Source of the DNA: a virus
Virus record (IMG/VR): IMGVR_UViG_3300045988_098461
Coordinates: 20,546 to 84,545 of that record
Strand: one strand, 5' to 3'
DNA: 64,000 nucleotides
The notes beneath the pieces are model-generated. The model did not search any database, had not been told where the DNA came from, and saw nothing but the letters and a program-made list of their open reading frames with translations. Every line of letters starts with the position of its first letter. The stretch's first letter is position 1. Positions 14,995 through 51,322 of the stretch are shown here, piece after piece. The position numbers and the translations under genes are program-made.

Positions 14995-15042
14995 AACAAA
15001 AATAAAAGGCAAGATAGCCAATATTCTTGGTTACTTTGCCTT
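14995..15042 (-). terminator. intrinsic terminator of the leader-protein/DUF559 cassette
   Basis: AAGGCAA(15006-12)/TTGCCTT(15036-42) stem, followed on the minus strand by TTATTTTTGTTT. Confidence 0.5.
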
Positions 15043-15387
15043 GCGTTGTATCAAATCTATCTTTGCCTTAACCTTCTTCGGATTCCTAGCATCGTGATTA
15101 CTCAATCTTACCACATGATACCCAAGCCGCCATATACCCGAAGAGCGGTTACCATCCTTGCGCTTTTGGTCTTTAGTAAAATGATAACCACCATCGAGCT
15201 CAATAATCGTTTTTATCTCGGGCAGATATATATCAGCGAAGTATAGCTTTCTGCCCGTGACTATCGGCTGCTGTGGTATCACCTTATATCCTAACAGAGT
15301 GCAGATTTTCGCCGCAGCCTTCTCCGCATCGGTTGTATGTGAAAGTAGGTCGCAGCGAATCTGATATATGAGTTTCTTGGATAGCAT
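15031..15387 (-). CDS. DUF559 / Vsr-like restriction-endonuclease-fold protein
   Basis: The stretch ...YFADIYLPEIKTIIELDGGYHF...VVRLSN... matches the DUF559 pattern. Confidence 0.65.
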   Translation of the reverse strand: MLSKKLIYQIRCDLLSHTTDAEKAAAKICTLLGYKVIPQQPIVTGRKLYFADIYLPEIKTIIELDGGYHFTKDQKRKDGNRSSGIWRLGYHVVRLSNHDARNPKKVKAKIDLIQRKAK

Positions 15388-15857
15388 TATTTATAATACT
15401 TTTTGAAATTTTCTTCGTTTGCGAAGTATTTTCCTGTAGTAGATGTTACTTCTTGCTTGAATTTTTTAACGCCATTAGCTAGTTTATTAAACTTATCTTT
15501 TGGCATAGCACTCTTAATAATAGATACGAATGCTTCGTGCGCTTTATCTGTTACATTCGGCTTTAATATGGCATTAAAAATGCTTCTATCATCGCTGAAA
15601 TTTATATTTCCAGAGATATTTTCTCCATGATTTATCGCACTCATAATTTTCGTTACATCGTACGTTGCATTTTTGAGGAGTTGATACAAATCTTGTTTAT
15701 CATATTCACTCAAATTGCTTATAGCACTATTTGGCGAGTTTGTCTTCAAGACTATATTTTCATTTGTCCCTCCCCCGATTGCGCTCTGCGCAAAGGTTCT
15801 GCTTGCGGCAGCATTTGCGCTGCTCACGGTTCTTGTACCGCCACTTGCCTTACTCAT
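15387..15857 (-). CDS. protein with conserved N-terminal MSKASGGTR leader (family member 2)
   Basis: N-terminus MSKASGGTRTVSSANAAASRT is nearly identical to that of 40752..41144. Confidence 0.55.
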   Translation of the reverse strand: MSKASGGTRTVSSANAAASRTFAQSAIGGGTNENIVLKTNSPNSAISNLSEYDKQDLYQLLKNATYDVTKIMSAINHGENISGNINFSDDRSIFNAILKPNVTDKAHEAFVSIIKSAMPKDKFNKLANGVKKFKQEVTSTTGKYFANEENFKKYYK

Positions 15858-34485: not shown

Positions 34486-34517
34486 TTTGGTGGTTTTAAA
34501 AGAAATTATTAATTTTG
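34486..34517 (+). promoter_or_regulatory. Bacteroidota-type promoter TTTG-N20-TAATTTTG (cassette copy B)
   Basis: TTTG at 34486-89 and TAATTTTG at 34510-17. Nearly identical to cassette A. Confidence 0.65.
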
Positions 34518-34571
34518 CGGTGTAAATAATTAATAAATAGGTTTAATATTTAAATTATAGGAGATACAACA

Positions 34572-34754: not shown

Positions 34755-34779
34755 TTAATGATATATAGGAGATACGACA

Positions 34780-35205
34780 ATGAATAAGTACGCAGAATTA
34801 AAGAAGAAGCATCAGAAAGAGCTTAATAAATTGCCAATGAAAGCTGCTTTTGGTAAAGAGCAGTTTAAGAAAATGATGGAAGAGTGGGGGCTTACCACCA
34901 ACGCCGAAGATATTAGTAAGATTGATATGCTCGTTTGTGGTTGCTATTGCTTAAAGGAAGATACCCATCTTTTCGAGGAGTACTTTCAGAGAACACAGAA
35001 AGAGCTTAAAGAGTTCTTAAAGGATGATGATAATCTTAAATCAGCATTCAAATATGAGTTCGCTAACCATGAATGCGGATATACATATACACCGCAAGAT
35101 GCGCTTCCTCCGCTTAATCTTACCTATGAAGAGGTTGAGAAGAATGAGCGTTTAAATAGGGTCTTTAACGAGGCTTGGTGTGAATATTTAGATAAATGTG
35201 AATAA
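34780..35205 (+). CDS. hypothetical protein
   Basis: TAGGAGATAC at 34766-75 before the ATG. Confidence 0.55.
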   Translation: MNKYAELKKKHQKELNKLPMKAAFGKEQFKKMMEEWGLTTNAEDISKIDMLVCGCYCLKEDTHLFEEYFQRTQKELKEFLKDDDNLKSAFKYEFANHECGYTYTPQDALPPLNLTYEEVEKNERLNRVFNEAWCEYLDKCE

Positions 35206-35208
35206 GAT

Positions 35209-35520
35209 ATGTATAAAGAAGGCGATGTTTTAGTACTTTATAATAATTGGCGTGCTGAGTATTGCATATTCATTCTACACAGAATATACAATGATGATTG
35301 GATAGAAGCTCATGCAAAGTATTCTCTCCCATTCAAAAAGCTTGGAGTAGGAGCAAATAATGCTTCTACAAACGTAAAATACTCTACGGGGTGTTTGAGA
35401 AAAGCGTATGAGGATGAAAGAGAATTTTTGTTAGAAAAAATGAAGGAAAAAGGTTATTCATACGATTTTAAGAAGAATAAACTGCTACATTCATTCAATT
35501 ATGAAAAAGGAAGAAATTAA
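35209..35520 (+). CDS. hypothetical protein
   Basis: 103-aa ORF with a TAAGATATG junction. Confidence 0.5.
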   Translation: MYKEGDVLVLYNNWRAEYCIFILHRIYNDDWIEAHAKYSLPFKKLGVGANNASTNVKYSTGCLRKAYEDEREFLLEKMKEKGYSYDFKKNKLLHSFNYEKGRN

Positions 35521-35619
35521 GATAAATGAGCATTGTAAGCACTATTTCTTAGGCTTCTGCCACTTCTATTTAGGTGGCTGCTGCTCTGGTATTAAATGCG
35601 GATATAAATAATTAAGATT

Positions 35620-35841
35620 ATGACAAAGTTTATTGAGGTAAAGTATAAAGGGCATTGTACCCTTGTAAATATAGATAATATCGCTTACGTTGAACCTTCA
35701 CGAAATGGCGATATAGTAACATCTATAAAGCTTAATTGCAAGACCACACCAACGGGCGGTCAAGTGATTCTCTGCGAGGATGATTACCACACATTCTTGA
35801 CTAGATTGGAAAACCTTGTTGTCGTTGATAAAGCTGAGTAA
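35620..35841 (+). CDS. hypothetical protein
   Basis: 73-aa ORF. Confidence 0.45.
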   Translation: MTKFIEVKYKGHCTLVNIDNIAYVEPSRNGDIVTSIKLNCKTTPTGGQVILCEDDYHTFLTRLENLVVVDKAE

Positions 35842-35844
35842 GAT

Positions 35845-36078
35845 ATGAGAGCATTTGACGTACTTTTAGCCTTACATCGCTTGGATATGCGACAGGGCAA
35901 GGATTATCTTGAAGCTCCTGAAAAGAATGATTTGGAGCTGAATGTGATAGAAGGTAAGCTGAAACGGAATCATTGGTATTGGTGCGATTTCCATAAGCAG
36001 CCAATGCTCGGCGAGCCTTCGGTTATCCTCACTCTTGGCGGTGGGGATATTCAATACCTTTATGAAGTAGAAAAGTAA
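35845..36078 (+). CDS. hypothetical protein
   Basis: 77-aa ORF with a TAAGATATG junction. Confidence 0.45.
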   Translation: MRAFDVLLALHRLDMRQGKDYLEAPEKNDLELNVIEGKLKRNHWYWCDFHKQPMLGEPSVILTLGGGDIQYLYEVEK

Positions 36079-36091
36079 ATTAATATAAGTT

Positions 36092-36358
36092 ATGTATCAG
36101 ATAAATGTTGTAACATATAGCACAAGAGTGGACGTAAAGAACGCTCGCCGCAAGGTAGCGAATCGACAAAAGAGAATGCTCGGAGGATGGTTTGAAAGCG
36201 TGAAATTAGCAAGAAAAGCCTTGAAAGAATTCTTTGAGAAGGAAGGCTATCAGATAGGTAACGAGGTCGAGGAAAAGGGCAGCGAGACCTATGTTAAGAC
36301 GTTATTCTTCGGTAACATTATGCTCGAAATGGAGTATAAGATAATCAAGTATAATTAA
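36092..36358 (+). CDS. hypothetical protein
   Basis: 88-aa ORF. Confidence 0.45.
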   Translation: MYQINVVTYSTRVDVKNARRKVANRQKRMLGGWFESVKLARKALKEFFEKEGYQIGNEVEEKGSETYVKTLFFGNIMLEMEYKIIKYN

Positions 36359-36361
36359 TCT

Positions 36362-36601
36362 ATGGCTCGTTTCGCTCTCAGAAATCAGGAGAAGATAAAG
36401 CAAGCATTCGGGGAAGAAAGGTTGGATGAGCTTTTGAAAGCATTGAAGCTGTATTCTGCCAAGTACCCGAAATTATCGTTGAACACAATCATCGAAGAGG
36501 GTAAGCCTTATCCTTCTTTCGTAGTTGATAAGATTGCCGTATTATATGTAACTCGCCTGATGTATGACGTTTATCACGTTGCTTTAAAGGAGTTCTTATA
36601 A
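36362..36601 (+). CDS. hypothetical protein
   Basis: 79-aa ORF. Confidence 0.45.
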   Translation: MARFALRNQEKIKQAFGEERLDELLKALKLYSAKYPKLSLNTIIEEGKPYPSFVVDKIAVLYVTRLMYDVYHVALKEFL

Positions 36602-36731
36602 ACAAAAAGCACCGCCCTCGGAGATACGAATGAGGACGATGCTAGATGTAAATAATTATTATGTTTAACGTTGTGAGTACATAGGAGATACGCACTCGAT
36701 ATAACAATTAATGCAAAAGTAATAAAAAATA

Positions 36732-36763
36732 TTTGGTTATCTGAATATTTCTTCGTAAATTTG
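36732..36763 (+). promoter_or_regulatory. Bacteroidota-type promoter TTTG-N20-TAAATTTG
   Basis: TTTG at 36732-35 and TAAATTTG at 36756-63. Confidence 0.6.
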
Positions 36764-36796
36764 CGAATAATTAACATTAAAATAGGAGATACAGCT

Positions 36797-37585
36797 ATGA
36801 TAGGAGCAATTATAGGTGATATTGTAGGCTCTAAATATGAGTTTAATAACACATTTGATTATAACTTTAAACTATTTGACGAAGGTTGTAATTTTACAGA
36901 TGATACTATCTGTACAATAGCCGTAGCAGATGCTATTCTTAAAGAAGGTGGTGATAAAAAGCCGAATGTCGGAGATTATTGTATCTCGCTTCAATACTGG
37001 TGTCAGAAGTATCTAAACCCAATGGGTGGGTATGGCGCAAGCTTCGCAAAATGGGTTCGTAGCTCTAATCCACAGCCTTATGATAGTTTTGGAAATGGAG
37101 CAGCTATGAGAGTTAGTCCTGTGGGTTGGGCATTCAAAGAAAATTCTGATATCATTCATCAGGCAATGATGAGCGCAAAGGTTTCGCATAGCCATGTTGA
37201 AGGATTGATTGGTGCTATTGCGGTAGCAGATTGTGTACATGCTTTAAAAGCATATAAACAAAAAGATTTGATTAGGGTAATAGCAAAACAATATTATGGC
37301 TCTGATTGGAATAAGAATCTTGTACCAAGAGGTAGATGGGCAGAAACTTGCCAAGAGTGCGTTCCTCTTGCCTTTAGAATAGTCCTTGATAGTGATAGCT
37401 TCGAGGACGCAATCAGAAATGCTGTATCCTACGGCGGTGATAGCGATACGATGGGAGCAATCGTTGGTTCAATCGCTCAGCCACTCTTTGGTATTCCACA
37501 AGAAATGAAGGAAAAAGCATTGAACTATCTCCCTTTGGATATGAAGAATGTAGTAACTAAATTTATTGATAGATATGGTGAATAA
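36797..37585 (+). CDS. ADP-ribosylglycohydrolase (DraG/Tri1-like ARH)
   Basis: Start at MIGAIIGDIVGSKYEF after TAGGAGATAC (36783-92). Also carries ...GAAMRVSPVGW... and ...SYGGDSDTMGAIVGSIA..., typical of the ARH family. Confidence 0.8.
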   Translation: MIGAIIGDIVGSKYEFNNTFDYNFKLFDEGCNFTDDTICTIAVADAILKEGGDKKPNVGDYCISLQYWCQKYLNPMGGYGASFAKWVRSSNPQPYDSFGNGAAMRVSPVGWAFKENSDIIHQAMMSAKVSHSHVEGLIGAIAVADCVHALKAYKQKDLIRVIAKQYYGSDWNKNLVPRGRWAETCQECVPLAFRIVLDSDSFEDAIRNAVSYGGDSDTMGAIVGSIAQPLFGIPQEMKEKALNYLPLDMKNVVTKFIDRYGE

Positions 37586-37910
37586 GGAAGATTTAATCAA
37601 GCACTGCCGATACTATAGAGGTGGTGAGAACCCAAATACCAACGAAAATATGGCTTGGTTTTGGGATATGGAAAGAGTGTATGTTAATAGCGAAGGAAAG
37701 TTTAAAGGTGAGGAAGAATATTATAAGAAAATCAATGGTAAGGAATATAAGGGGATTCCACATACATTGCTTATTATAATGTTCACTTCATGGGCTAAAG
37801 CAGCCTTCAATATTAAGGAAGAGATAGGTAGGTTCTATAAGCTGATAGACGAATACCTCTTTATCCCAAACGACCATTTCCCAGAGGATAAAATTCCAAA
37901 CGAACTATAA
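37575..37910 (+). CDS. hypothetical protein translationally coupled to the ARH
   Basis: Start MVNKEDL overlaps the end of the ARH gene. Confidence 0.45.
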   Translation: MVNKEDLIKHCRYYRGGENPNTNENMAWFWDMERVYVNSEGKFKGEEEYYKKINGKEYKGIPHTLLIIMFTSWAKAAFNIKEEIGRFYKLIDEYLFIPNDHFPEDKIPNEL

Positions 37911-37912
37911 CG

Positions 37913-37945
37913 AAAAAAGGTGCGCCGTAATGGTACACCTTTTTT
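37913..37945. terminator. bidirectional intrinsic terminator between convergent ARH and MuF-ART genes
   Basis: AAAAAAGGTG...CACCTTTTTT. Confidence 0.6.
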
Positions 37946-37947
37946 GT

Positions 37948-40752
37948 TTAATATCCGATATTGCTATCCTTTACATAAGATAAATCTCTTATTTCTTGCC
38001 CTATAACCTCGCAGTCTATGTAGGTCTTTCCACCTTCTTCATAAACCTTTGTTATTCGCATTCGTGTTCCTCTCTGAAAGAGTGTTTCGTGCTCGGAACT
38101 ATATGTTGAGAAACGACTTACTCCATCCCAACTTCTTTTATCACCACAACCGAAAGCAGAGAAAGGTTCTACGTAAGCAGCCTTTGTTCCTTTTGGTGCA
38201 TATATGTTCATAATAACACTTCGAGTATTGAAGCCTTTTCCTTTTCGGCTACCAGTTGACATAAAACCACCTTCTTGCATTTCCATTCCAACAAGGTCTT
38301 GAAGGTTTTTTGGCATAGAACCGCCAGCAAACTTAATTCGTGATTCAATAACTTTCATTCCATCATCACCTCTTGTAAACCACATATCGGTAGGAAGTTC
38401 GTTCTTTTCTATATAGCTTGTTATATTATTAACCTTCTCTATGAACCTTTCCTTCGTTTGGTAACTATCATATTTTCTTCCTTGTAATGGTTCATTTACA
38501 TCGCAATAATGATGAGTGTATTCGTATGTGAAATCTTTTTCTTTTTCTGTTGCTGCTATCCATTGTTTGGATGCAACATCTACGAGGGTTTTATCAGCTT
38601 TTGCACCATTACCCTTATCCCATACTGCGGCATCTTTCCTTGATTGAGAGAATCGGTCTGTATCAAATACAACATTCTTCGCATTTCGTTTTGCTTTCGC
38701 ATTAATAAGCGTTTCTTTCTTTTGCTTAGCTTCATAAAGCAACTGCTCAGCAAGGGTCTTATCCTTTGCGAGCATGGCGTGTTCAAGGTCATAGATAAGC
38801 TTATGATATATCTTGCTCTGTGTCTTATAACCTTTTACGTCAGCATAAGCTTTATTGATATTCACCCAATCAATCGCCGTTTTTACCTCATCAAGCTTTT
38901 TGAGATATGCCGCTTGCGATACCTTCCATGTAGCATACTTCTGTTGAACCCCGTGCATATTTCCACCAAGGAAATCAACTGCCTCAAATTGCAATTTGCT
39001 AACTTGCTTTTCAAGCGTCAAGCTTTGCCATTGAGCCAACTTTGCTTCTACGGCATCATATACTCCGTGCAATTCCTGGGACGTGAACTGCTTATGCCAC
39101 TTATTAACATCAGGGATGAGAGCAGAAAGTGATAATTCATCCTTTTTAATAGCAGAAATGGCGTTTGCGAGCGTTTTTGCTTCTTTCCTTGCTAATGTAT
39201 AGTTAGCAGACTTTAATGCGATTAGAACGGCAGAAACATCGGTTTCTCCGTAATTAGCAGCCACCTTCATAACATTTATCGCAACCTTGCGGTCAGTCCA
39301 TGCAAGTTTAGTCTGATAACCTCGCTTGAATCTATCAAACAAAGATGCTATCTCAGAAGCACTCTTTTTGTCCTTGATTGCGTAGCGGATAGCATAGTAA
39401 CGTTCAAAGAGGTCTTGGCTCTTTATATCCGTAACAGATTTGCTACCGAGCAGATTATGAACTAAGCCATTGTAATAGTCACGTCTATGCTTATCCCATC
39501 GGCTCTGTATCTTATCTATCTGCTCTTTAGTTCTAAGGGCGTGACGTTCCTTTGCCTTCGCAAGTATAAGCTCCTTAGAAGAAACCGCCTTTAACCCCAA
39601 TTTCTTGCGGTCTAACGGGCTTAAAAGATGTGCCCAATACTTTGTATTATCTTGTAAGTGCCAAGCCAATTTACCCCTCATTCCTGCCTTCACAATAGCT
39701 TCGGAGTTATCCTTAATGTACTGATTGTACTTCTCGGGCATAGTGAGCACGGCAAAAGGGGATACGTAGTTGCTCATATCCTCGCCAGCCATTAAGCGTT
39801 TATAAAACTCCTTTTTCTCATCGCCTTGTATAGTGATAGGGTCTGAGGTACAGATACATTGAGGATGCCAAGAAATCCATACGTAATCTTTCGGGTAGCG
39901 ACCTTCAAGGTCATTGCATATATCATCAATATTGTGCTGTGGTGATACGTGAATATACTGACCGATAACGAACGGCTCGTTCTGCCATCGCTCGTTTCTT
40001 GCCTTGTGATATGCGGCATTTATCTCCGTTCTTGCTACTCTGAGAGCATTCTTTCTTGCCGAGCGGTAAACACCCATGCCTACTTTCTCTAATGGCTCTT
40101 CAATAAAGCGCACCTTGCCGTCAATGATTCTACGTCTGCGCCAAGTCACCACATCTTTCTTCTTTCCGTTCTTCTGAACCTTGATGGTATGATAACGGCG
40201 ATACATCATATCTGGGTCATTAAGGTATCTGCGAATACTCTTGCCGATTTCCTCTGCTGATGAGCCTTGTTTGATTCCGTCCGCAATGGTGTTGCTCATA
40301 GCCATTTCAAACTCGCTCTTCGTCTGTTGGCAATAGTTCCAAACAATCTGAGCGAGATTCAATCCATTCTTTGTTTTCAAACGATTTGCAATAAACGTGG
40401 CTGCGGCGGTATCTCGTGCGACCCTTATTGCTTTATCAGTAAGCACGGAATAACCGCCTATAACCATTTCATCGTGGTTATACGCCAACGCAACGCCATC
40501 GGTGATGCCGCTCTTATAACAAAGAAGGCTATTCTGATAGTAATCATTAAAGATGTCGTTCAAACGAGCCTTTAACTGCGGAAAGTTATCAAAGTTAAAA
40601 AGCGCATCATCTTCGAGCACATCTTCTCCATAGCCAAGAGAGGTAAGCTTCTTGACATAATCGCTGTATAATCTGCCCAACCGCTTATTATAAACGGCGA
40701 ACAGATTATTCAGTTGTTCTTTCTGTTGTTTTGATGTGAGCTTCTTAGACAT
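37948..40752 (-). CDS. MuF/SPP1 gp7-type minor head protein fused to a C-terminal ADP-ribosyltransferase toxin domain
   Basis: MuF core ...HVSPQHNIDDICNDLEGRYPKDYVWISWHPQCICT.... The C-terminal ~190 aa carry the R-S-E triad: WFTRG, GGFMSTGS and SSEHETLFQRG (ExE). Confidence 0.8.
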   Translation of the reverse strand: MSKKLTSKQQKEQLNNLFAVYNKRLGRLYSDYVKKLTSLGYGEDVLEDDALFNFDNFPQLKARLNDIFNDYYQNSLLCYKSGITDGVALAYNHDEMVIGGYSVLTDKAIRVARDTAAATFIANRLKTKNGLNLAQIVWNYCQQTKSEFEMAMSNTIADGIKQGSSAEEIGKSIRRYLNDPDMMYRRYHTIKVQKNGKKKDVVTWRRRRIIDGKVRFIEEPLEKVGMGVYRSARKNALRVARTEINAAYHKARNERWQNEPFVIGQYIHVSPQHNIDDICNDLEGRYPKDYVWISWHPQCICTSDPITIQGDEKKEFYKRLMAGEDMSNYVSPFAVLTMPEKYNQYIKDNSEAIVKAGMRGKLAWHLQDNTKYWAHLLSPLDRKKLGLKAVSSKELILAKAKERHALRTKEQIDKIQSRWDKHRRDYYNGLVHNLLGSKSVTDIKSQDLFERYYAIRYAIKDKKSASEIASLFDRFKRGYQTKLAWTDRKVAINVMKVAANYGETDVSAVLIALKSANYTLARKEAKTLANAISAIKKDELSLSALIPDVNKWHKQFTSQELHGVYDAVEAKLAQWQSLTLEKQVSKLQFEAVDFLGGNMHGVQQKYATWKVSQAAYLKKLDEVKTAIDWVNINKAYADVKGYKTQSKIYHKLIYDLEHAMLAKDKTLAEQLLYEAKQKKETLINAKAKRNAKNVVFDTDRFSQSRKDAAVWDKGNGAKADKTLVDVASKQWIAATEKEKDFTYEYTHHYCDVNEPLQGRKYDSYQTKERFIEKVNNITSYIEKNELPTDMWFTRGDDGMKVIESRIKFAGGSMPKNLQDLVGMEMQEGGFMSTGSRKGKGFNTRSVIMNIYAPKGTKAAYVEPFSAFGCGDKRSWDGVSRFSTYSSEHETLFQRGTRMRITKVYEEGGKTYIDCEVIGQEIRDLSYVKDSNIGY

Positions 40753-41144
40753 TATTTACCCTTATAGTTCCTCTTGTAGAAAATAGCGATATTCACAGCA
40801 CCGTTATCTTCGTAATAATATCCTTTCTTCGTAAGGTACGACTTTACGGTTGCTGCCTCGTTGTTTTTTAGCTGATTAAAATCAATATTGATGTAACCAC
40901 CTAATTTCTTAGAAGTACCGTTTATAGCCTTGCTAATATCTACATTCGTCATATCCTTTATGTGTCGTGGCAAGGTTTTTGTGAATAAGGAAAACTTTGA
41001 ACGGTCTATTTCTGTGATATTCTGATAATTCATCTGCTTACTTTCTGCCTTTGATTTAATCTGAATATCTTTATTCGCATTTGTTCTGCTACTTGCAGCG
41101 TTTACACTGCTTATAGTACGTGTATTTCCACTTCCTTTTGCCAT
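40752..41144 (-). CDS. protein with conserved N-terminal MAKGSGNTR leader (family member 1)
   Basis: MAKGSGNTRTISSVNAASSRT..., located between the portal and MuF genes. Confidence 0.55.
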   Translation of the reverse strand: MAKGSGNTRTISSVNAASSRTNANKDIQIKSKAESKQMNYQNITEIDRSKFSLFTKTLPRHIKDMTNVDISKAINGTSKKLGGYINIDFNQLKNNEAATVKSYLTKKGYYYEDNGAVNIAIFYKRNYKGK

Positions 41145-41146
41145 AG

Positions 41147-42658
41147 TTATTCCTCCTCTTCTTCTTCATTGGAAACTGACTGTCTTCCACTTGCGGCACT
41201 ACCAAGTCCCGAAAGAGCTGCCTGCTGCGCCAACGCTTCTTCCTGTTCACTCTTCATTTCTTCCTCAACCTTATCAGGGTCATCATTGAGAGGGTTAAGC
41301 TCGATGGCACGGCGATTAGAGGTAGATTTCGCACCACCATTGGATGAAGTGATAAGTTGCAACATTTCAACATCATTCTTTGGTAGATATGGCTTGAAGA
41401 CTGGTTCAAAGTCAATCTGCTCAGCAACACTCTGGTCGATACCCTTTACGTAAACTCCCGTATTACAGATGCCGTTAGCTACGATATTCGAGCGGCGAGT
41501 AAACATTTCACCGAACATTTCTGTCTTCAAATCTGCTTTCATATAAGGAGCAGTGAACATCAAACGGATAGCCGCACCCGAGGTGTTGCTGCCCAAGGTT
41601 TTCATATTCTCAAAGCTGATATCGGCTGTTGAGGTGAATGAATAGATGATATTGAAGAGGTAAGCAATTTCACCCTTCACACTCTCAGGTGATTTATCCC
41701 ATGAAAGGACGTTCATACTTGCATCACTGCCACCTTGGAAGACTGTGCCTTGCTCGCCCTTCTCAGCGAAGCCCTCCAAACGACCTTTAATAAAGTACTT
41801 AGGCGTGCCGAAGTAGTCATTCGTATCACCCCAATTTGAGATACAAGTTTCCACTCTGTCAATAGCCCATTGAACATCTTCCCACTCAGCTTGGTCTTGT
41901 CTATAGTAAACGACAGGCACTTTGGTGAAGCCATGAGGTAGGGCAGAAATAAGCTTCCAACCTGCGCCATCAATATTAGTGTACTGATAGCACAATCTAT
42001 CTGTATATACATCAAAATGTAGCTCAGATTTTCCAAGCTCATCATATACATAGTACTCACGGGCGAAGCCGTCCATGATATGGAAATCGTTGAAATGAGG
42101 GTAGAGCTTATCGCCGTTTGAAGGTGAAAGCAACTGAACTCGGATTTCGCCTCGAAGCTTTCCCTCTGCGTCTGTTGGCATATACCATAACTCGGCGCAC
42201 TCACATTCCTTGAAGAGGGTACGGGCAAGTCGCTTATCGAAGTACTTCATCTTGTTGTCGTGATAGCAGTGCATGATGCCGTCATATAGCTTCTGCTGCT
42301 TATCGTCCATCTTCTTTATATCAACACCATGTGCCGTAGCTTTATAGGTAACGGCATTCATAAACAAGAAACCAACAGTAAGATTTGTGATTGACTTCTG
42401 AGCAGGGATAGCGATTCTTACTGGCTCAACTTTCTTATCCTTATAAATCGGTTTCTGTGTGATAGGGTCATACTGACCCGTAGGTACTTTGATTCGTTTC
42501 TTAGGACGGAAATCCTCATCAAAGATTTTATGCTTTGATGGATTCCATTGTTCTTCAAGCACACTCAGTGATGTCTTAAAGCCTTTCTTTCTTGCGGTCA
42601 ATACCGAGCGGACTGTGTTCGCATCTTGTATTGATACTATCTGTTCTATTGCTCTCAT
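41147..42658 (-). CDS. portal protein
   Basis: 503 aa between TerL and MuF, with an acidic C-terminal tail (NEEEEEE). Confidence 0.8.
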   Translation of the reverse strand: MRAIEQIVSIQDANTVRSVLTARKKGFKTSLSVLEEQWNPSKHKIFDEDFRPKKRIKVPTGQYDPITQKPIYKDKKVEPVRIAIPAQKSITNLTVGFLFMNAVTYKATAHGVDIKKMDDKQQKLYDGIMHCYHDNKMKYFDKRLARTLFKECECAELWYMPTDAEGKLRGEIRVQLLSPSNGDKLYPHFNDFHIMDGFAREYYVYDELGKSELHFDVYTDRLCYQYTNIDGAGWKLISALPHGFTKVPVVYYRQDQAEWEDVQWAIDRVETCISNWGDTNDYFGTPKYFIKGRLEGFAEKGEQGTVFQGGSDASMNVLSWDKSPESVKGEIAYLFNIIYSFTSTADISFENMKTLGSNTSGAAIRLMFTAPYMKADLKTEMFGEMFTRRSNIVANGICNTGVYVKGIDQSVAEQIDFEPVFKPYLPKNDVEMLQLITSSNGGAKSTSNRRAIELNPLNDDPDKVEEEMKSEQEEALAQQAALSGLGSAASGRQSVSNEEEEEE

Positions 42659-42686
42659 ATATGAATATTTTTTGTTATAACAAGGG

Positions 42687-42694
42687 CAAAGTTA
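42687..42694 (-). promoter_or_regulatory. -7 box TAACTTTG
   Basis: Plus strand reads caaagtta, 29 nt upstream of the portal ATG. Confidence 0.35.
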
Positions 42695-42754
42695 GTAATA
42701 ATATAACTTATATAGGCATGAAGAAGAAACCCTGTGTAAACAAAAGAAAAACGC

Positions 42755-42958
42755 CTATTTCGGCAGTCTTCCAATGTGCCAATGATTGCACTCACTACAA
42801 AGATATGCGGAGTAACCGAGTAGCCGCTTTTTCTTTATGTATCTTGCGGCTACCTTCTCATTATCAAAGGATAATTTGGCTACTCCTCTGCTATTATAGT
42901 GGGAGCGTTTACGATGATGCTCCCTTGGCTGTTTATCATATATTCGTTTCATAAGCAT
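42755..42958 (-). CDS. small basic Cys/His protein
   Basis: 67-aa ORF with ...YLCSECNHWHIG.... Confidence 0.4.
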   Translation of the reverse strand: MLMKRIYDKQPREHHRKRSHYNSRGVAKLSFDNEKVAARYIKKKRLLGYSAYLCSECNHWHIGRLPK

Positions 42959-42965
42959 TTCGATT

Positions 42966-44156
42966 TTAACCCATCAGACCGAGAATGTCGGCGGCTTGCA
43001 TTCCGCTGCCATAATCGCCCAATAACTTCTCCATAACAACATATCGGCATGCATCTATAGCGTGATTATACATATCTATAGGCTCATTAAGCCACTTTCC
43101 TTCCTTATCTTGGCGATAGGTATAATTATTAAATTCCCTTCTTACATTTGTAGAGCGTTTTGTTATATGAATTGTGTATTCTTGCATCTTCATAATACTA
43201 GCTTGAATAGAACCTTTGAACTTCTTTACAGGTTTTATATCAATACCAGCATTATAGATTTCATCTATCAGACGAGGGTCGGCACTCTCTGATATTACCT
43301 CAATATTTTTTTTATCCTCTTTCAATACTCTGATAATATCAGAAGAAAGCATTTCTGTCTGATAGCATATTTCATCTATATAGATAATCTTTCCGTAGAT
43401 ATATACATCAATAATCGCTGTAGGGTCATTGGAGTAACCAAAGTCAATGGCTCTGTATCGGTGTCTGTTCGCTTGAATAGGAATATAATCATCAATAACT
43501 ACATTCTTAAAAATCAAGCCCTCAACCATAGAACGCAATCCCAAACCATAAATACGCCAAAGGCTCGGATTCTTCCATTTAAGGCTCTCAATCTCAGCGA
43601 TAACCTTTGGCTCGAGGAAAGGATTATCCTTATAGGTGGATATAAACCAATAAGTGCTTTTTTCCTCGTTTACCTGATTTATCCAATGGTCTTCTGAGAA
43701 GGAAGGGTTATAATCAAGGATAGAGAACTCCGTGGTACGCATCTGTAGCTGCTGCCATTCGATGAAAGAAAGCTCATTCGCCTCATTTACGAAAAGTATC
43801 TTACGCTTAGAACCACGCACCTTCTGCTCGTTATCGGTGGAGAAGAACTCAATCCAAGAGCCGTTAGGGAAAGTATAAACGAACTCCGATTTATTCATGC
43901 ACTTATCATCCCACCAACCAAAGTTGAGCATTATATCCTTGAAATCACGATAGACAGTTCGTTTAATGGAAGGCATACCAGCACGAATGATGGAAACGGT
44001 CGTTCCAGCATAATTGAAGCAAAGCATACAGAGGAACTGCACAACAGAATAGGTCTTCGCAGAGCGTGAGCTTCCTTGAAGAGAGCAAGTTGTGAACCCT
44101 GCTTCTTTCGCTGCCTTTACCCTCATGTAGTTCTTTGCTAAATATACGTGCGGCAT
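42966..44156 (-). CDS. terL: terminase large subunit
   Basis: 396 aa with a Walker-A-like GSSRSAKT and a C-terminal nuclease-like half. Sits directly upstream of the portal. Confidence 0.9.
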   Translation of the reverse strand: MPHVYLAKNYMRVKAAKEAGFTTCSLQGSSRSAKTYSVVQFLCMLCFNYAGTTVSIIRAGMPSIKRTVYRDFKDIMLNFGWWDDKCMNKSEFVYTFPNGSWIEFFSTDNEQKVRGSKRKILFVNEANELSFIEWQQLQMRTTEFSILDYNPSFSEDHWINQVNEEKSTYWFISTYKDNPFLEPKVIAEIESLKWKNPSLWRIYGLGLRSMVEGLIFKNVVIDDYIPIQANRHRYRAIDFGYSNDPTAIIDVYIYGKIIYIDEICYQTEMLSSDIIRVLKEDKKNIEVISESADPRLIDEIYNAGIDIKPVKKFKGSIQASIMKMQEYTIHITKRSTNVRREFNNYTYRQDKEGKWLNEPIDMYNHAIDACRYVVMEKLLGDYGSGMQAADILGLMG

Positions 44157-44179
44157 ATCTCTATTATCCTTTATTGCTC

Positions 44180-44689
44180 TTATTTCTTTATTTCATCAAC
44201 TGTAACTAAGGTGTCGTTGTGCGAGCCGCCATGTGCTACGATAAGAATCTCTTTACATACCGCTCCGTTACATTTTCCTATTCCTTGTGTATTCCAACCA
44301 CAAGAAATACAGATACCTTCATTCTTTAATATTCTTGCAATCTCCTTCTTACATAAAGACCAATATTTGGCATTAGAGACATTTATCTCCAATTTCTCTT
44401 TGCCAAAATCCTTATATAGCAAAGATGCTTGTGTTACACTATAAGGTGGGTCGTATAATACCATATCAGCAGAATTAGATTTCTGCCCTTGAAGGAACTT
44501 TAATGCGTCAAGGTGATACTGAGTATCGCAGTTCGGATTTAAGTCATTGCGAATTGTTCCGAGCTTGCAATCCTTTGCGAATGGGTCAATAATAACACCA
44601 CCTTTATTATATTTATCAAAAAGTTCTTTGATTGGCTTTATACCGAAAGTATCACCACTTGGCATAGCCCATTTCTTCTGTATTTCCAT
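44180..44689 (-). CDS. small DNA methyltransferase (DPPY motif)
   Basis: VIIDPFA (motif I-like) and VLYDPPYS (motif IV). Confidence 0.65.
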   Translation of the reverse strand: MEIQKKWAMPSGDTFGIKPIKELFDKYNKGGVIIDPFAKDCKLGTIRNDLNPNCDTQYHLDALKFLQGQKSNSADMVLYDPPYSVTQASLLYKDFGKEKLEINVSNAKYWSLCKKEIARILKNEGICISCGWNTQGIGKCNGAVCKEILIVAHGGSHNDTLVTVDEIKK

Positions 44690-44693
44690 ATAT

Positions 44694-46118: not shown

Positions 46119-46122
46119 ATTA

Positions 46123-47352: not shown

Positions 47353-47446
47353 AGAAGAATAAATCGGGTGGGTCAGTACACTGGCTGCTCGATTTCATGC
47401 TTATTCTTCAAAGGCAAAGAGGTGTACCTGCTTTGCTGTTTTTTAT
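47353..47446 (+). ncRNA. candidate ~95-nt structured sRNA with an intrinsic terminator
   Basis: A 9-bp stem GAAGAATAA(47354-62)/TTATTCTTC(47401-09) encloses inner helices. The terminator is GCAAAG-AGGT..ACCT-CTTTGC(47414-36) plus TGTTTTTTAT. No ORF. Confidence 0.45.
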
Positions 47447-47985
47447 CAAAGTTTATGGCGATGAACATTGCCTGATAAGCCAACAACAATAACTTCTTTT
47501 AAGTTACCTCTTTCATTTCCTTTTGCATGAGTGAGATACATAGAAATTTGGTCTTTGACATATTCCTTTGTCATAGCCTTGTTATTCTGTATGAGGATAG
47601 CAACCTCTGCCCCTTGCTTTGCAGCACTCTTCAATGCATTCTCTACCTTATAGGCACTCGCCGAGTTGATGGTTTTCATATCCATCACGGCGTGCTCTTT
47701 GAAGCCATCAGTCTTCTTCGCTCCCGTTATATACGACATTTCGCTCATCAAATATACACGATAACCCTTTTTGGCAAGAACTTCTGCGGCATACATTTCC
47801 TTATTGGTATTCGGGTCAGCAATCTTATTATGGTTGTTATGTACCACATAATAACCGCCGCTTTTATCGAAGTAGCTATCTTTATAGTTGCCCGTAGAGA
47901 CGATGGCTTGAAATTCTGATTCTCTCTTAGCCATCGTCTTAGGGTTACCCGAATAGTTTCGTGTACCTCCGCTTGCCTTACTCAT
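47446..47985 (-). CDS. protein with N-terminal MSKASGGTR leader (family member 3) and a possible PD-(D/E)xK-like C-terminal domain
   Basis: Start moved to the internal MSKASGGTRNY (47985), because the longer track ORF overlaps queC. ...KKTDGFKEHAVMDMKTI...QGAEVAILIQ... resembles restriction-endonuclease-fold toxin domains, but this is tentative. Confidence 0.5.
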   Translation of the reverse strand: MSKASGGTRNYSGNPKTMAKRESEFQAIVSTGNYKDSYFDKSGGYYVVHNNHNKIADPNTNKEMYAAEVLAKKGYRVYLMSEMSYITGAKKTDGFKEHAVMDMKTINSASAYKVENALKSAAKQGAEVAILIQNNKAMTKEYVKDQISMYLTHAKGNERGNLKEVIVVGLSGNVHRHKL

Positions 47986-48634
47986 CCTCGTATTCGGTTG
48001 GGTCTGAAATGCCTGCATCACGGAGAGCTTCCTTGCGTTCCATACAAGTACCACACTTACCGCAATGCTTCTCACCGCCCTTGTAGCAGCTCCAAGTTTC
48101 AGCGTAGTTAATGCCAAGCTCCTTGCCGTGGCGAGCAACATCAGTCTTCGTAATACTGGTATAAGGAGCATCAATGCTGATACCCTCGTAAGTACCATTC
48201 TTCATTGCCTCTGACATGGCATCAATGAAGCCCTTGCGGCAGTCTGGATAGATTGCGTGGTCGCCGAAATGGTTAGCAATAAGCACCTTCTTCAATCCAT
48301 TACTCTCTGCGATACCGCAAGCGATAGAGAGCATAATGCCGTTACGGAAAGGAACTACGGTTGATTTCATGTTTGCATCATCGTAATTACCTTCTGGGAT
48401 AGCTTCTGCTCCTTCGAGGAGAGAGGATTTGAAATAATCGTGAATAAAATTGAGTGGAATAACAATATGCTTGATACCAAGTCGCTCACAATGCAACTTA
48501 GCAAAAGGAATCTCCTTCTGATTGTGGTTAGAGCCATAATCAAAAGAAATAGCGAGAGCAATGTTCTCTTTCTTCTCATGCAGGAGAGTTACCGAGTCCA
48601 TACCTCCTGATACAATAATCAATGAATCTTTCAT
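47978..48634 (-). CDS. queC: 7-cyano-7-deazaguanine (preQ0) synthase
   Basis: IIVSGGMDS PP-loop and a C-terminal Cys cluster CYKGGEKHCGKCGTC. Confidence 0.9.
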   Translation of the reverse strand: MKDSLIIVSGGMDSVTLLHEKKENIALAISFDYGSNHNQKEIPFAKLHCERLGIKHIVIPLNFIHDYFKSSLLEGAEAIPEGNYDDANMKSTVVPFRNGIMLSIACGIAESNGLKKVLIANHFGDHAIYPDCRKGFIDAMSEAMKNGTYEGISIDAPYTSITKTDVARHGKELGINYAETWSCYKGGEKHCGKCGTCMERKEALRDAGISDPTEYEDE

Positions 48635-50551: not shown

Positions 50552-51322
50552 TTACTTTTCCTCAATCTGTTTAGAGACATTATCTGTTCGGAAATCCTCA
50601 ATCTGCTTGGAGAAAGGGGTGAGCTTATCAAGCTGCGCCTTAACAGAGAACTCTTCTCCGATAAAGGCAACACCTTCGTGAATCTTCTGCAAGGCGGCAA
50701 GCTGCTTCTTTGTAGTAACAACGGGGTTGATGTAGATGCAACCTCTATGGGTCTGGGCGAACCGCAGACACTCAGCACCGCCGCCGTAGATAACAAATAG
50801 CGGCTCTTTGCCCTCTGCCCAATCGCTTGCAATGGAATACTCAAAGGCGAGGTTATTCAGTCTATCCGAATATCCACGGGTAGCGAAGGCACGCCATCCA
50901 CGAGGTACGCCAATCATATTGAGGCGATAGAACTTCTGCGCAACGTTGAGGTCAACGAAGATACCGATACCCTTACCTTGCATACAACGGGCAATCCAGC
51001 GTTTCTTGTAGATAGCCTGCAAGCCGAAAGATACGGGCATTTCATTATATAGGGAGAAGTTCGGCTCAACGATAACGGCAGGGTGATGCTGCAATATCTT
51101 CTCAGGGTGCTCGTAGATAGCTGAGAAGCGGTAATCATCGGTATAGAAGTGCAAAGAGCCTTCACCATTGAGGTTGAAGGTTCTCTTCTGTTCGCCGAAG
51201 CAAAGGAAGGGTGACTGACACTCCTTTGCTTGCATATCAATATCGAGTGTCGGAATCTCTAGGTCATTGTCCGTTGGGAAGAGCTGGTCGGGCAGGGTAA
51301 GCTCATAATCTGTTCTTTTCAT
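50552..51322 (-). CDS. DUF4417-family protein
   Basis: ...SLHFYTDDYRFSAIYEHPEKIL....IVEPNFSLYNEMP...IYKKRWIARCMQ.KGI... matches the DUF4417 pattern. Confidence 0.6.
   Translation of the reverse strand: MKRTDYELTLPDQLFPTDNDLEIPTLDIDMQAKECQSPFLCFGEQKRTFNLNGEGSLHFYTDDYRFSAIYEHPEKILQHHPAVIVEPNFSLYNEMPVSFGLQAIYKKRWIARCMQGKGIGIFVDLNVAQKFYRLNMIGVPRGWRAFATRGYSDRLNNLAFEYSIASDWAEGKEPLFVIYGGGAECLRFAQTHRGCIYINPVVTTKKQLAALQKIHEGVAFIGEEFSVKAQLDKLTPFSKQIEDFRTDNVSKQIEEK

What the first reader, a model, noticed from the sequence alone, without database searches (positions are those of the whole stretch)
40752..41144. Three otherwise unrelated proteins share an N-terminal M[SA]K[AG]SG[GN]TR(T[VI]SS.NAA.SRT) leader, a possible capsid-targeting signal
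Seen in the sequence: 40752..41144 starts MAKGSGNTRTISSVNAASSRTNAN. 15387..15857 starts MSKASGGTRTVSSANAAASRTFAQ. The internal start at 47985 gives MSKASGGTRNYSGNPK. The DNA encoding the leaders has diverged while the peptide is kept, and the downstream domains show no similarity to each other. One member lies between the portal and MuF genes, where internal or ejection proteins are usually encoded. Inference: the leader may be a shared packaging or portal/MuF docking signal, or a processing site, that lets interchangeable cargo proteins be loaded into the capsid. I do not recognise this motif from a described family.
Basis: partly seen in the sequence, partly recalled or inferred. Interest (0 to 1): 0.7.

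Follow-up and report, generated by a model that had tools for sequence, protein, structure and literature searches.

The report
Shared N-terminal tag on swappable phage proteins
Gut Bacteroidales phages put the same nine-residue N-terminal tag (M-A/S-K-x-S-G-x-T-R) on dozens of unrelated small proteins, some of them toxins, encoded beside the portal and head genes. The tag most likely loads these swappable proteins into the virus particle, but no experiment has shown this.

Summary
All three genes are on the minus strand and start with M[SA]K[AG]SG[GN]TR (about 1e-6 matches expected by chance). Their downstream parts are unrelated.

Pattern scans and profile searches found 225 distinct proteins with this N-terminus. 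They fall into at least 44 unrelated cargo clusters, with up to five per 10-kb locus, all in Bacteroidales (pro)phages. The peptide is conserved, but the DNA is not: all six Arg codons and both Ser codon classes are used.

The architecture is a 9-residue tag (21 residues in a subtype), a fast-evolving disordered linker, a variable cargo, and usually a basic C-terminal tail.

The genes lie on the packaging-gene strand in recurrent slots. In the main slot, portal|X|MuF, nine cargo types (one tandem pair) alternate.

Known cargos are effector-like: a CdiA-CT-type nuclease (lead3), ADP-ribosyltransferases, and a weak LPD3 match. The lead3 cargo is fused to a MuF head protein in an Elizabethkingia phage.

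Best reading (about 50%): a portable virion-loading tag, a "split" form of MuF polymorphic toxins that works like the T4 and P1 capsid-targeting sequences. Encapsidation is inferred. No database or paper searched describes the motif.

The parts
40752..41144 (-). lead1: 130-aa tagged protein in the portal|X|MuF slot. It has the tag plus extended leader (residues 1-21), a disordered linker (to about residue 46), a folded ~80-aa alpha/beta C-domain of unknown function, and a basic ...YKGK end.
   Evidence: homologues keep the MAKxSGxTR start and the YKGK end while the linker varies. AF2 shows residues 9-46 disordered and the C-domain at pLDDT about 84; no PDB fold match.
41118..41144 (-). Core 9-residue tag of lead1 (MAKGSGNTR). 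The extended 21-residue leader runs to 41082.
15387..15857 (-). lead2: 156-aa tagged protein upstream of the DUF559 gene and the head genes (p228, p192, major capsid protein). The cargo is of unknown function and the protein ends ...FKKYYK.
   Evidence: the extended-leader profile finds it again on other cargos.
15831..15857 (-). Core tag of lead2 (MSKASGGTR). The extended leader runs to 15795.
47446..47985 (-). lead3: 179-aa tagged protein with a CdiA-CT-type nuclease toxin domain, inserted between QueC and QueD.
   Evidence: Pfam CdiA_C, E = 0.0017; many homologues carry a precomputed PF18451 hit. AF2 pLDDT 83; top Foldseek match is 4g6v_A, the CdiA-CT toxin of B. pseudomallei (probability 1.00, E = 2.5e-4); sources name it tRNA nuclease CdiA C-terminal domain / CDI toxin-like.
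47959..47985 (-). Core tag of lead3 (MSKASGGTR). Its ATG overlaps the QueC stop by 8 nt.
41147..42658 (-). SPP1-type portal gene, ending 2 nt before the lead1 start. Its C-terminus is acidic (...SNEEEEEE).
37948..40752 (-). MuF head protein with a C-terminal ADP-ribosyltransferase (Bxa-like MuF polymorphic toxin). Its start overlaps the lead1 stop by 1 nt. It carries no tag.
   Evidence: ADPrib_exo_Tox 9.7e-25; phrog_16625, Bxa ADP-ribosyl transferase, 2.5e-123..
36761..37910 (+). An ADP-ribosylglycohydrolase (BAH-like) and a 114-aa ORF in the position where Bsi lies in the published Bxa locus. They are convergent with the MuF-ADPRT gene.
   Evidence: ADP_ribosyl_GH 1.5e-32. Literature: PMC11699363. 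The Bsi equivalence rests on position only.
42966..44156 (-). Terminase large subunit, in the same strand block as the tagged genes.
50552..51322 (-). DUF4417 gene. In related phages the position just after its homologue is a second hot spot for tagged genes.
15031..15387 (-). DUF559 endonuclease-like gene whose start overlaps the lead2 stop. It is a recurrent neighbour of tagged genes (L046, L110).

Best explanation
M-[A/S]-K-x-S-G-x-T-R, sometimes extended to ...TR-T-V-S-S-x-N-A-A-x-S-R-T, is a portable N-terminal trafficking tag. It sits on a disordered tether in front of small, basic, interchangeable effector proteins of gut Bacteroidales siphophages. The genes are expressed with the packaging and head genes. 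I infer that the tag docks the proteins to an internal procapsid component (portal, MuF or scaffold), so that they are enclosed with the DNA and ejected into the next cell. There the cargos would act: a CdiA-CT-type nuclease, ADP-ribosyltransferases, and many of unknown function. In effect this is a split version of the MuF polymorphic toxins, in which a 9-residue tag replaces covalent fusion to the MuF head protein. SHOWN: the tag, its selection at the peptide level, its modularity, its genomic slots, and the cargo identities. INFERRED: encapsidation, the docking partner and delivery.
For: (1) Scale and modularity. With all sources pooled there are 225 distinct proteins in 44 cargo clusters.
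(2) A discrete motif. Over ORF starts in these loci the motif score is bimodal: 104 at 7/7, 12 at 6/7 and 3 at 5/7. These loci were retrieved with the motif, so the peak at 7/7 is partly by design.
(3) An independent check. A 32-position profile of the extended leader, run against 1.84 billion proteins, gave 16 significant hits. All 16 begin at residue 1 of the protein, and seven of them (P0122, P0123, P0125, P0128, P0129, P0131, P0133) have downstream sequences unlike one another; six stay as separate cargo clusters.
(4) Peptide-level selection. There are 56 different 27-mers among 61 leaders, using all six Arg codons, both Ser codon classes and all Gly and Thr third bases. Within orthologous families the tag is 75% identical, against 34-44% for the adjacent linker (alignments).
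(5) Location. Tagged genes always lie on the packaging-gene strand, usually abutting the upstream gene. Cargo clusters 1, 2, 3, 4, 5, 9+25, 15 and 20 alternate directly after the portal, mostly in a portal|X|MuF slot. Other slots lie after the DUF4417 gene, before DUF5681-TerL, and before the capsid genes. Hits in bacterial genomes are all in such prophage modules of Bacteroidales.
(6) Link to known virion cargo. The lead3 cargo is 33% identical (E = 2e-15) to the C-terminal half of the MuF 'minor head protein' of Elizabethkingia phage TCUEAP3, which is encoded next to its portal. Other cargos match ADPrib_exo_Tox (1.9e-15) and, weakly, ART-PolyVal and LPD3. These are domain types that Iyer et al. 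2017 (PMC5512222) and Jamet et al. 2017 (PMC5576092) assign to proteins packed in phage heads.
(7) Physical properties. The tag region is predicted disordered. The proteins are basic (median pI 9.5 against 7.8). 55% have at least 3 K/R among the last 6 residues, against 6% of controls (p = 3e-9).
(8) Precedent. The T4 internal proteins use a 10-residue N-terminal capsid-targeting sequence, and P1 DarB uses an N-terminal signal within 30 residues (PMC9026906 and PMC9024508).
Against: No virion proteomics exists for this lineage, and no cultured phage in the INPHARED collection carries the tag. No docking partner has been identified. Porphyromonas phage005b has the same portal|ORF|MuF|ADP-ribosylglycohydrolase layout, but its slot protein has no tag, so the slot does not require it. 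A common lead1 homologue (P0018) lies in elements where no portal or MuF is visible within 10 kb. lead3 has no adjacent immunity gene, unlike typical MuF toxins. The tag has no similarity to the T4 capsid-targeting sequence. Most cargos have no known function, so calling them effectors extrapolates from a few.
Confidence: 0.5

Rival explanations
1. The tag is a regulatory handle rather than a packaging signal. It could be a recognition site for a protease (a processing site or degron), or for one shared chaperone or inhibitor that keeps many different toxic cargos silent in the producing cell.
For: Several cargos are toxins, yet lead3 has no adjacent immunity gene. A shared neutralising or turnover handle would explain one tag on many toxins. 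The tag lies on a disordered N-terminal tail, as degrons and cleavage sites do. Residue 2 is nearly always small (A, S, G, V, T), which is compatible with N-terminal Met removal.
Against: No protease or common binding-partner gene was identified. Late lytic expression makes self-protection less necessary. This does not explain the preference for the portal|MuF slot or the cargo shared with a MuF fusion. The two ideas are not exclusive: the T4 capsid-targeting sequence is both a targeting and a cleavage signal.
Confidence: 0.17
2. The tag directs export or release of the proteins from the lysogen or lysing cell (to the medium, to vesicles or to neighbouring cells) without passing through the capsid.
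For: According to the abstract of Alexei et al. 2024 (PMC11699363), the neighbouring MuF-ADPRT homologue Bxa acts on host epithelial cells after release from cells. The cargos include interbacterial-type toxins.
Against: The tag has no hydrophobic core, no twin arginine and no lipobox, as the sequences show directly, so it is not a Sec, Tat or lipoprotein signal. The proteins lack the C-terminal domains used by type IX secretion in Bacteroidota (own knowledge; none was found by Pfam). All occurrences lie in phage packaging modules and none beside a secretion system.
Confidence: 0.1
3. The shared start has no function as a peptide. It would be a nucleotide-level element (a translation-initiation context, or a recombination anchor for cassette exchange) or a remnant of common descent.
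For: The genes are tightly coupled to the upstream gene (2-nt gap or overlapping stop and start), so the first codons lie in a translational coupling region. Cassette exchange clearly happens at these slots.
Against: Synonymous sites vary freely while the residues are fixed: 56 distinct 27-mers among 61, six Arg codons, and both AGY and TCA for Ser. The upstream DNA is unrelated. The motif survives 5-6 residues from the start in N-extended forms such as MGGNSDKTSGGTRNY. 27 nt is too short and too variable to act as a recombination anchor. The tag is more conserved than the adjacent linker within families.
Confidence: 0.04

Closest known systems
T4 capsid-targeting sequence (CTS) of internal proteins IPI-III and Alt (Mullaney and Black 1996; reviewed in PMC9026906)
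   Same: Both are short N-terminal peptides (about 10 residues) shared by otherwise unrelated small, basic proteins of one phage. In T4 the peptide is sufficient to load foreign proteins into the head, and the cargos include an ADP-ribosyltransferase and anti-restriction proteins that are ejected with the DNA.
   Different: There is no sequence similarity (own knowledge: the T4 IPIII CTS begins MKTYQEFIAE). The T4 CTS is cleaved at an L/I-x-E site by the prohead protease gp21; no such site or protease is evident here. T4 is a myovirus with a scaffolding core, whereas this is an SPP1-like siphovirus module with portal and MuF. The cargo repertoire here (at least 44 families) is far larger.
MuF polymorphic toxins (Jamet et al. 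2017, PMC5576092; Bxa, Alexei et al. 2024, PMC11699363)
   Same: Both occur in temperate phages, next to the portal gene, with variable C-terminal toxin domains (ADPRT, nucleases). One cargo here (lead3) is homologous to the C-terminal domain of a MuF protein. The window itself carries a Bxa-type MuF-ADPRT with a BAH-like hydrolase next to it.
   Different: The tagged proteins have no MuF domain. The conserved N-terminal part is 9-21 disordered residues, not a folded domain of about 250 aa. Adjacent immunity genes are not evident. There can be several tagged genes per genome.
Polyvalent proteins and their 'solo' effector domains (Iyer et al. 2017, PMC5512222)
   Same: The domain repertoire overlaps (ART-PolyVal and LPD3 weakly, and toxin-type nucleases). 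The genes neighbour virion genes. That paper already proposed that solo versions act early after injection.
   Different: That work gives no route by which solo domains would enter the virion. The tag described here would supply one. The matches to LPD3 and ART-PolyVal are below Pfam thresholds.
P1 DarB N-terminal capsid-targeting signal (PMC9024508)
   Same: An N-terminal signal within the first 30 residues is sufficient to send a reporter into the capsid. The cargo is an anti-restriction effector.
   Different: It is described for one 250-kDa protein in a stepwise Dar assembly pathway. It is not a tag shared by many cargos, and there is no sequence similarity.
Encapsulin cargo-loading peptides
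   Same: Both are short, disordered, Gly/Ser-containing terminal peptides on flexible linkers. In encapsulins they load diverse cargo into an HK97-fold shell.
   Different: Encapsulin peptides are usually C-terminal and anchored by hydrophobic residues (own knowledge), and they work in non-viral compartments. The tag here has no hydrophobic anchor.

Membership tests
T4-type capsid-targeting-sequence proteins | A short N-terminal peptide shared by unrelated proteins of the same phage | tested here: met
   Three proteins in the window, up to five per related locus, and 44 cargo clusters.
T4-type capsid-targeting-sequence proteins | Sequence similarity to the T4 CTS and an L/I-x-E prohead-protease cleavage site | tested here: not met
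   The tag MAKxSGxTR contains no L/I-x-E. No prohead protease family was detected among the head genes.
T4-type capsid-targeting-sequence proteins | The peptide is necessary and sufficient for encapsidation, and the protein is present in virions | not testable with these tools
   This needs virion proteomics and reporter fusions. No cultured relative carrying the tag is in the phage collection.
MuF polymorphic toxins | An N-terminal MuF domain (PF04233, PF06152 or MuF3/4) | tested here: not met
   The three proteins and 29 cargo representatives have no MuF hit. The MuF gene is a separate neighbour (37948..40752).
MuF polymorphic toxins | A variable C-terminal toxin domain | tested here: met
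   lead3 has a CdiA-CT fold. Cluster 5 matches ADPrib_exo_Tox at 1.9e-15. Most other cargos are unknown.
MuF polymorphic toxins | Encoded in the head-morphogenesis module of a temperate phage, next to the portal | tested here: met
MuF polymorphic toxins | A small immunity gene immediately downstream | tested here: inconclusive
   There is no ORF between lead3 and QueD. lead1 is followed by MuF and lead2 by a DUF559 gene. Some relatives have an 89-aa ORF downstream.
CdiA-CT toxins (for the lead3 cargo only) | Fold and sequence of a CdiA C-terminal nuclease domain | tested here: met
   Foldseek 4g6v_A, probability 1.00, E = 2.5e-4, TM-score 0.62 normalised by target length. Pfam PF18451 is below threshold in the window protein (E = 0.0017) but is precomputed for many homologues.
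CdiA-CT toxins (for the lead3 cargo only) | Location at the C-terminus of a CdiA filament protein, with a CdiI immunity gene downstream | tested here: not met
   It is a stand-alone 179-aa protein in a phage 7-deazaguanine gene cluster, with no downstream ORF.
Sec, Tat or lipoprotein signal peptides | A hydrophobic h-region, a twin-arginine motif or a lipobox cysteine | tested here: not met
   Direct reading of the sequences: residues 1-25 are polar (S, A, N, T, K, R, G; composition), with a single R and no C.

The most novel reading that the evidence does not exclude
The 9-residue peptide is a general, portable capsid-loading tag. It would define a previously unrecognised polymorphic effector-delivery system of human-gut Bacteroidales phages. 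Dozens of unrelated cargos (toxins, host-takeover and probably anti-defence proteins) would be loaded non-covalently beside the portal/MuF complex, with the basic C-terminal tail as a second shared feature, and injected with the DNA. The tag could then be used to pack chosen proteins into Bacteroides phage particles.
Probability: 0.45. Interest if true: 0.85.

Novelty: new variant of a known kind. Interest (0 to 1): 0.72.

Why it matters
Two kinds of system are well described: phage proteins that travel inside the capsid, and polymorphic toxins with a conserved trafficking end. How free-standing ("solo") effector domains of siphophages get into virions is an open point. Iyer et al. 2017 noted such solo domains but offered no route. 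A 9-residue tag shared by at least 44 cargo families in abundant human-gut Bacteroidales phages would give that route. It would also provide a simple sequence rule for cataloguing the injected-protein arsenal of these phages, most of which has unknown function, and it marks the portal|X|MuF slot as a place to look for new effectors. It would offer a practical handle for loading proteins into Bacteroides phage particles. The idea can be tested directly in the Bxa prophage system already used experimentally.

Tried and rejected
1. The plus-strand reading at the reported coordinates gives only stops; the genes are on the minus strand.
2. A short leader profile in the search for homologous proteins returned only 5 short fragments, because candidate collection is limited. 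It did reveal a new cargo (P0005).
3. The exact-codon scan for MSKASGGTR found only close relatives of the same phage, so a looser pattern was needed.
4. I considered mimicry of the ribosomal protein bL27 N-terminus, a resemblance recalled from memory (KAGGSTRNG). A leader profile against all PDB sequences, which include ribosomes, gave no bL27 hit. The only hits were chance matches to the antibody J-region (GQGTxVTVSS). Rejected.
5. Sec, Tat or lipoprotein signal: there is no hydrophobic region. Rejected.
6. I tested whether the basic C-terminal tail is a by-product of the A-rich start region of the next gene. Portal proteins are equally tightly followed by a gene but have non-basic C-termini. 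Not supported.
7. A nucleotide-level function is rejected by the synonymous variation.
8. Searches for cultured phages carrying the tag found none in the INPHARED collection. The nearest cultured portals (30-34% identity) are in Porphyromonas, Riemerella and Bacteroides BS-TP2 phages, and no tag was found in the two of these that I fetched and scanned (Porphyromonas phage005b, Bacteroides BS-TP2).
9. The fold search for the lead1 cargo gave nothing significant.
10. Pfam, NCBIfam and PHROGs have no model for the tag, and literal motif strings occur in no paper of the library.
11. Brown et al. 2021 (PMC8429246), which might hold virion or secretion data for the Bxa phage, is not in the library.
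12. About 35 of the 47 hits in the bacterial-genome scan are chance matches in high-GC genomes, as expected from the pattern's information content.
Full report
OBSERVATION. The three genes are on the minus strand; plus-strand translation at the reported coordinates gives only stops. Read on the minus strand:
- 40752..41144 encodes a 130-aa protein starting MAKGSGNTRTISSVNAASSRT.
- 15387..15857 encodes a 156-aa protein starting MSKASGGTRTVSSANAAASRT.
- The ATG at 47985 opens a 179-aa protein starting MSKASGGTRNYSGNPK.

That third ATG overlaps the stop of QueC (47978..48634) by 8 nt. It is the start used by most homologues, the 179-aa forms. The regex M[SA]K[AG]SG[GN]TR occurs exactly three times in the six-frame translation, each time at an initiator Met. 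From the window's own residue frequencies, 1.3e-6 matches are expected. The leader DNA differs at synonymous positions and the upstream DNA is unrelated. The downstream parts share no similarity (best BLASTP E = 0.24).

CONTEXT. The window is a Bacteroidales siphophage or prophage of the Bxa type.
- Reading the minus strand, one block holds a DUF4417 gene, a ParB-like gene, a DpdA-like transglycosylase, QueC, lead3, QueD, QueE, FolE, a DUF5681 (small-terminase-like) gene, a methyltransferase, TerL, an SPP1-type portal, lead1, and a 934-aa MuF protein with a C-terminal ADP-ribosyltransferase. That MuF protein matches the PHROG family named after Bxa.
- Convergent with the MuF gene lie an ADP-ribosylglycohydrolase and a 114-aa ORF. 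This matches the BAH/Bsi arrangement described for Bxa by Alexei et al. 2024 (PMC11699363). For the 114-aa ORF the match is by position only.
- A second minus-strand block holds lead2, a DUF559 gene, two head-associated genes, the major capsid protein, connector and tail genes, and a 1714-aa tape measure.
- lead1 starts 2 nt after the portal stop and its own stop overlaps the MuF start. The lead2 stop overlaps the DUF559 start.

HOW FAR THE TAG EXTENDS. A codon-specific scan for MSKASGGTR in viral contigs found 45 loci, all close relatives of this phage. After filtering for ORFs of at least 80 aa with an upstream stop within 25 codons, 106 ORFs (81 distinct) carried the tag. Their cargo parts fall into about 30 BLAST clusters. 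Single 10-kb loci carry up to five tagged genes (L082). The only systematic false positive is an internal Met in a 179-aa protein (MAKGSGATRATYL...).

Over all ORF starts in these loci the motif score is sharply bimodal: 104 at 7/7, 12 at 6/7, 3 at 5/7 and 40 at 4/7. So this is a discrete motif, not a compositional trend, although the loci were retrieved with the motif, which inflates the top bin.

Two searches were not biased by my codon pattern.
- The lead1 family, found by full-length homology down to about 50% identity, keeps MAK[GNS]SG[GTNS]TR while residues 10-40 change freely. Some members even gain a ~90-aa insert there.
- A 32-position profile of the extended leader, run against 1.84 billion representative proteins, gave 16 significant hits. 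All 16 start at residue 1 of the protein. Seven of them (P0122, P0123, P0125, P0128, P0129, P0131, P0133) have downstream sequences unlike one another, and six remain separate cargo clusters.

Pooling everything gives 225 distinct tagged proteins in 44 cargo clusters. Thirteen of those clusters carry the 21-residue extended leader.

In one genome per bacterial species (GTDB), 47 loci matched a stricter pattern. The credible ones are all Bacteroidales (Muribaculaceae, Sangeribacter, Egerieousia and unnamed MAGs), apart from L179, a MAG labelled Oscillospiraceae that carries a lead3-like protein. Most also show homologues of this window's packaging genes within the fetched stretch. The rest are the chance hits expected in high-GC genomes.

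SELECTION ACTS ON THE PEPTIDE. Among 61 leaders from different cluster and DNA combinations there are 56 different 27-mers. Arg9 uses all six codons, Ser5 uses AGY and TCA, and Gly and Thr use three or four codons each. Within the lead1 and lead3 families the nine tag residues are 75% identical, although two positions are free. The adjacent linker is 34-44% identical. In the lead3 family the core also occurs displaced from the start (MGGNSDKTSGGTRNY, MSGTPDKKTGGTRNY) or shortened (MKASGGTRNY). The core is therefore K-x-[ST]-G-G-T-R rather than a fixed distance from the N-terminus.

ANATOMY OF A TAGGED PROTEIN. Each has a 9-residue tag, then a polar S/A/N/T/K/R-rich linker that AlphaFold predicts as disordered: lead1 residues 9-46 and lead3 residues 1-7 have pLDDT below 50. 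A folded cargo of about 80-190 aa follows. The protein very often ends in a basic tail (...YKGK...RKK...KLKKK...RKRK). 55% of cluster representatives have at least 3 K/R in the last six residues, against 6% of control ORFs from the same loci (p = 3e-9). This is not a side effect of tight gene packing, because portal proteins, which are followed just as closely by a gene, have neutral or acidic ends. The proteins are basic overall (median pI 9.5 against 7.8; lead1 9.9, lead2 9.5, lead3 9.6).

CARGO IDENTITIES.
- lead3: weak Pfam CdiA_C in the window copy (E = 0.0017), the same family precomputed for many homologues, and a confident model (pLDDT 83). Its only significant PDB neighbour is the CdiA-CT toxin of Burkholderia pseudomallei 1026b (4g6v_A, probability 1.00, E = 2.5e-4). 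Public sources call it a tRNA nuclease CdiA C-terminal domain or CDI toxin-like protein.
- Cluster 5 is an ADP-ribosyltransferase (ADPrib_exo_Tox, 1.9e-15).
- Clusters 7 and 6 give sub-threshold hits to ART-PolyVal and LPD3, domains defined in polyvalent proteins.
- lead1 has a small alpha-beta-beta-alpha-beta-beta domain with no PDB match.
- lead2 and most other cargos match nothing in Pfam, NCBIfam or PHROGs beyond cargo-specific families of unknown function.

WHERE THE GENES SIT. I mapped homologues of the window's packaging genes onto the fetched loci. Tagged genes are always on the packaging-gene strand and occupy a few recurrent slots.
- The clearest slot is portal|X|MuF, typically with about a 3-nt gap after the portal and X abutting MuF. 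There, cargo clusters 1, 2, 3, 4, 5, 9+25 (a tandem pair), 15 and 20 replace one another between otherwise syntenic phages.
- Other slots lie directly after the DUF4417 gene, around the ParB-like gene upstream of DUF5681-TerL, and next to DUF559 upstream of the capsid genes.
- The three window genes occupy three of these slots.

THE LINK TO MuF. The lead3 cargo (residues 18-150) is 33% identical (E = 2e-15) to the C-terminal half of the 'minor head protein' of Elizabethkingia phage TCUEAP3. That protein is a Phage_Mu_F domain followed by a CdiA_C-like domain and is encoded just after the portal. So the same cargo is attached to a MuF head protein in one phage and to the 9-residue tag in another. 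MuF proteins (SPP1 gp7) bind the portal and are carried in the capsid. MuF fusions to toxins are an established polymorphic toxin family (Jamet et al. 2017, PMC5576092; Alexei et al. 2024). Iyer et al. 2017 (PMC5512222) noted that solo versions of such effector domains are encoded among virion genes and probably act early after injection, but gave no route into the virion.

MECHANISM. I think the tag is most likely a docking peptide that brings small basic effectors into the procapsid, near the portal/MuF complex or the scaffold, for ejection with the DNA.
- Shown: the tag is real, modular, selected as a peptide, restricted to phage late and packaging modules, placed on a disordered tether, and attached to effector-type cargos that elsewhere ride on MuF.
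- Inferred: encapsidation, the receptor and delivery.
- Precedents: the 10-residue capsid-targeting sequence of the T4 internal proteins, and the N-terminal signal of P1 DarB (PMC9026906 and PMC9024508).

I put this at about 0.5. The main rival, at about 0.17, is a regulatory handle: a processing site, a degron, or the binding site of one shared inhibitor. It is compatible with the lack of an immunity gene next to lead3, and it could coexist with targeting, as it does in T4. An export signal is unlikely, because there is no hydrophobic core and no secretion-system context. A nucleotide-level role is contradicted by the synonymous variation.

CAVEATS.
- No cultured phage in the INPHARED collection carries the tag, so no virion proteome can be consulted. 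The paper most likely to hold such data (Brown et al. 2021) is not in the library.
- Porphyromonas phage005b has the same portal|ORF|MuF|ADP-ribosylglycohydrolase layout, but its slot protein lacks the tag. The tag is therefore a lineage-specific solution, not a requirement of the slot.
- A frequent lead1 homologue (P0018) sits in integrase-bearing elements where no portal, MuF or capsid gene is visible within the 20 kb fetched.
- Most cargos have unknown function.

NOVELTY. Pfam, NCBIfam and PHROGs hold no model of the tag. Public names are 'hypothetical protein' except for the lead3 cargo. The motif strings occur in no paper of the library. The kind of system is known: a conserved N-terminal trafficking element on polymorphic cargos, and phage-capsid delivery. 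This element, its size, its cargo repertoire and its relation to MuF are not described, so I rate it a new variant of a known kind.

Noticed in passing
window 40752-40775, 15387-15410; related loci L051-L165; P0122-P0133: Tagged proteins share a second feature, a short basic C-terminal tail that often ends in K (...YKGK, ...KKYYK, ...RKRK, ...KLKKK). 55% of cargo-cluster representatives have at least 3 K/R in the last 6 residues, against 6% of controls. Portal proteins, which are equally tightly followed by a gene, do not. The tagged proteins are also basic overall (median pI 9.5). This may be a DNA-binding or second sorting element.
   Followed up: partly
window 45516-49523 (-): A 7-deazaguanine DNA-modification cluster (DpdA-like transglycosylase, QueC, QueD, QueE, FolE) has the CdiA-CT-type toxin gene lead3 inserted between QueC and QueD. 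The lead3 ATG overlaps the QueC stop, and no immunity-like ORF follows.
   Followed up: partly
window 36761-40752: A Bxa-type MuF ADP-ribosyltransferase lies convergent with an ADP-ribosylglycohydrolase (BAH-like) and a 114-aa ORF (Bsi-like by position). The window is therefore a relative of the experimentally studied Bacteroides stercoris Bxa prophage.
   Followed up: partly
window 3769-18862 versus 37948-51636, separated by plus-strand genes 19298-37910: The morphogenesis genes are split into two minus-strand blocks: terminase-portal-MuF, and scaffold/capsid-to-tail. About 19 kb of plus-strand genes lie between them, which is unusual for an SPP1-like module order.
   Followed up: no
L047-L049 (contigs carrying P0018), locus coordinates about 2000-20375: A very common lead1 homologue (124 aa) lies in an element ordered integrase, repressor, tagged gene, HTH_39, ParB-methyltransferase, DUF5681, several small genes, then a ~1900-aa tape measure. 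No terminase large subunit, portal, MuF or capsid gene is visible in 20 kb. It could be a rearranged phage or a satellite-like element.
   Followed up: no
P0033-P0056 (lead1 family, 217-220 aa forms): Some lead1 homologues carry an extra conserved ~90-aa module (QQFTDDAT...GKFLSIEHANMSGARSE) inserted between the tag and the C-domain. The linker can therefore accept whole domains.
   Followed up: no
L214 9458-9832 (Porphyromonas phage phage005b): This cultured-host relative has the same portal|124-aa ORF|MuF|ADP-ribosylglycohydrolase layout. Its slot protein has no tag (MQIREFNP...) but still ends in a basic tail (KSRKNKE).
   Followed up: partly
L172, L184, L190 (Candidatus Dormiibacter genomes): A conserved 207-280-aa protein of high-GC Dormibacterota starts MAKKSGGTRQQVRRVVKPKPP. 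It was picked up by the DNA pattern and looks unrelated to the phage family, but I did not examine it.
   Followed up: no
window 41147-41180 (-): The portal protein ends in an acidic run (...SVSNEEEEEE). Related portals often end in acidic residues, the opposite charge to the basic tagged proteins encoded next to them. The pattern is not uniform across loci.
   Followed up: partly
(PDB search with the extended leader): The only PDB sequences resembling the extended leader (GSGGTRTVSSANAA) are antibody heavy-chain J-regions (GQGTTVTVSSA). This is a chance resemblance that could confuse motif searches.
   Followed up: yes
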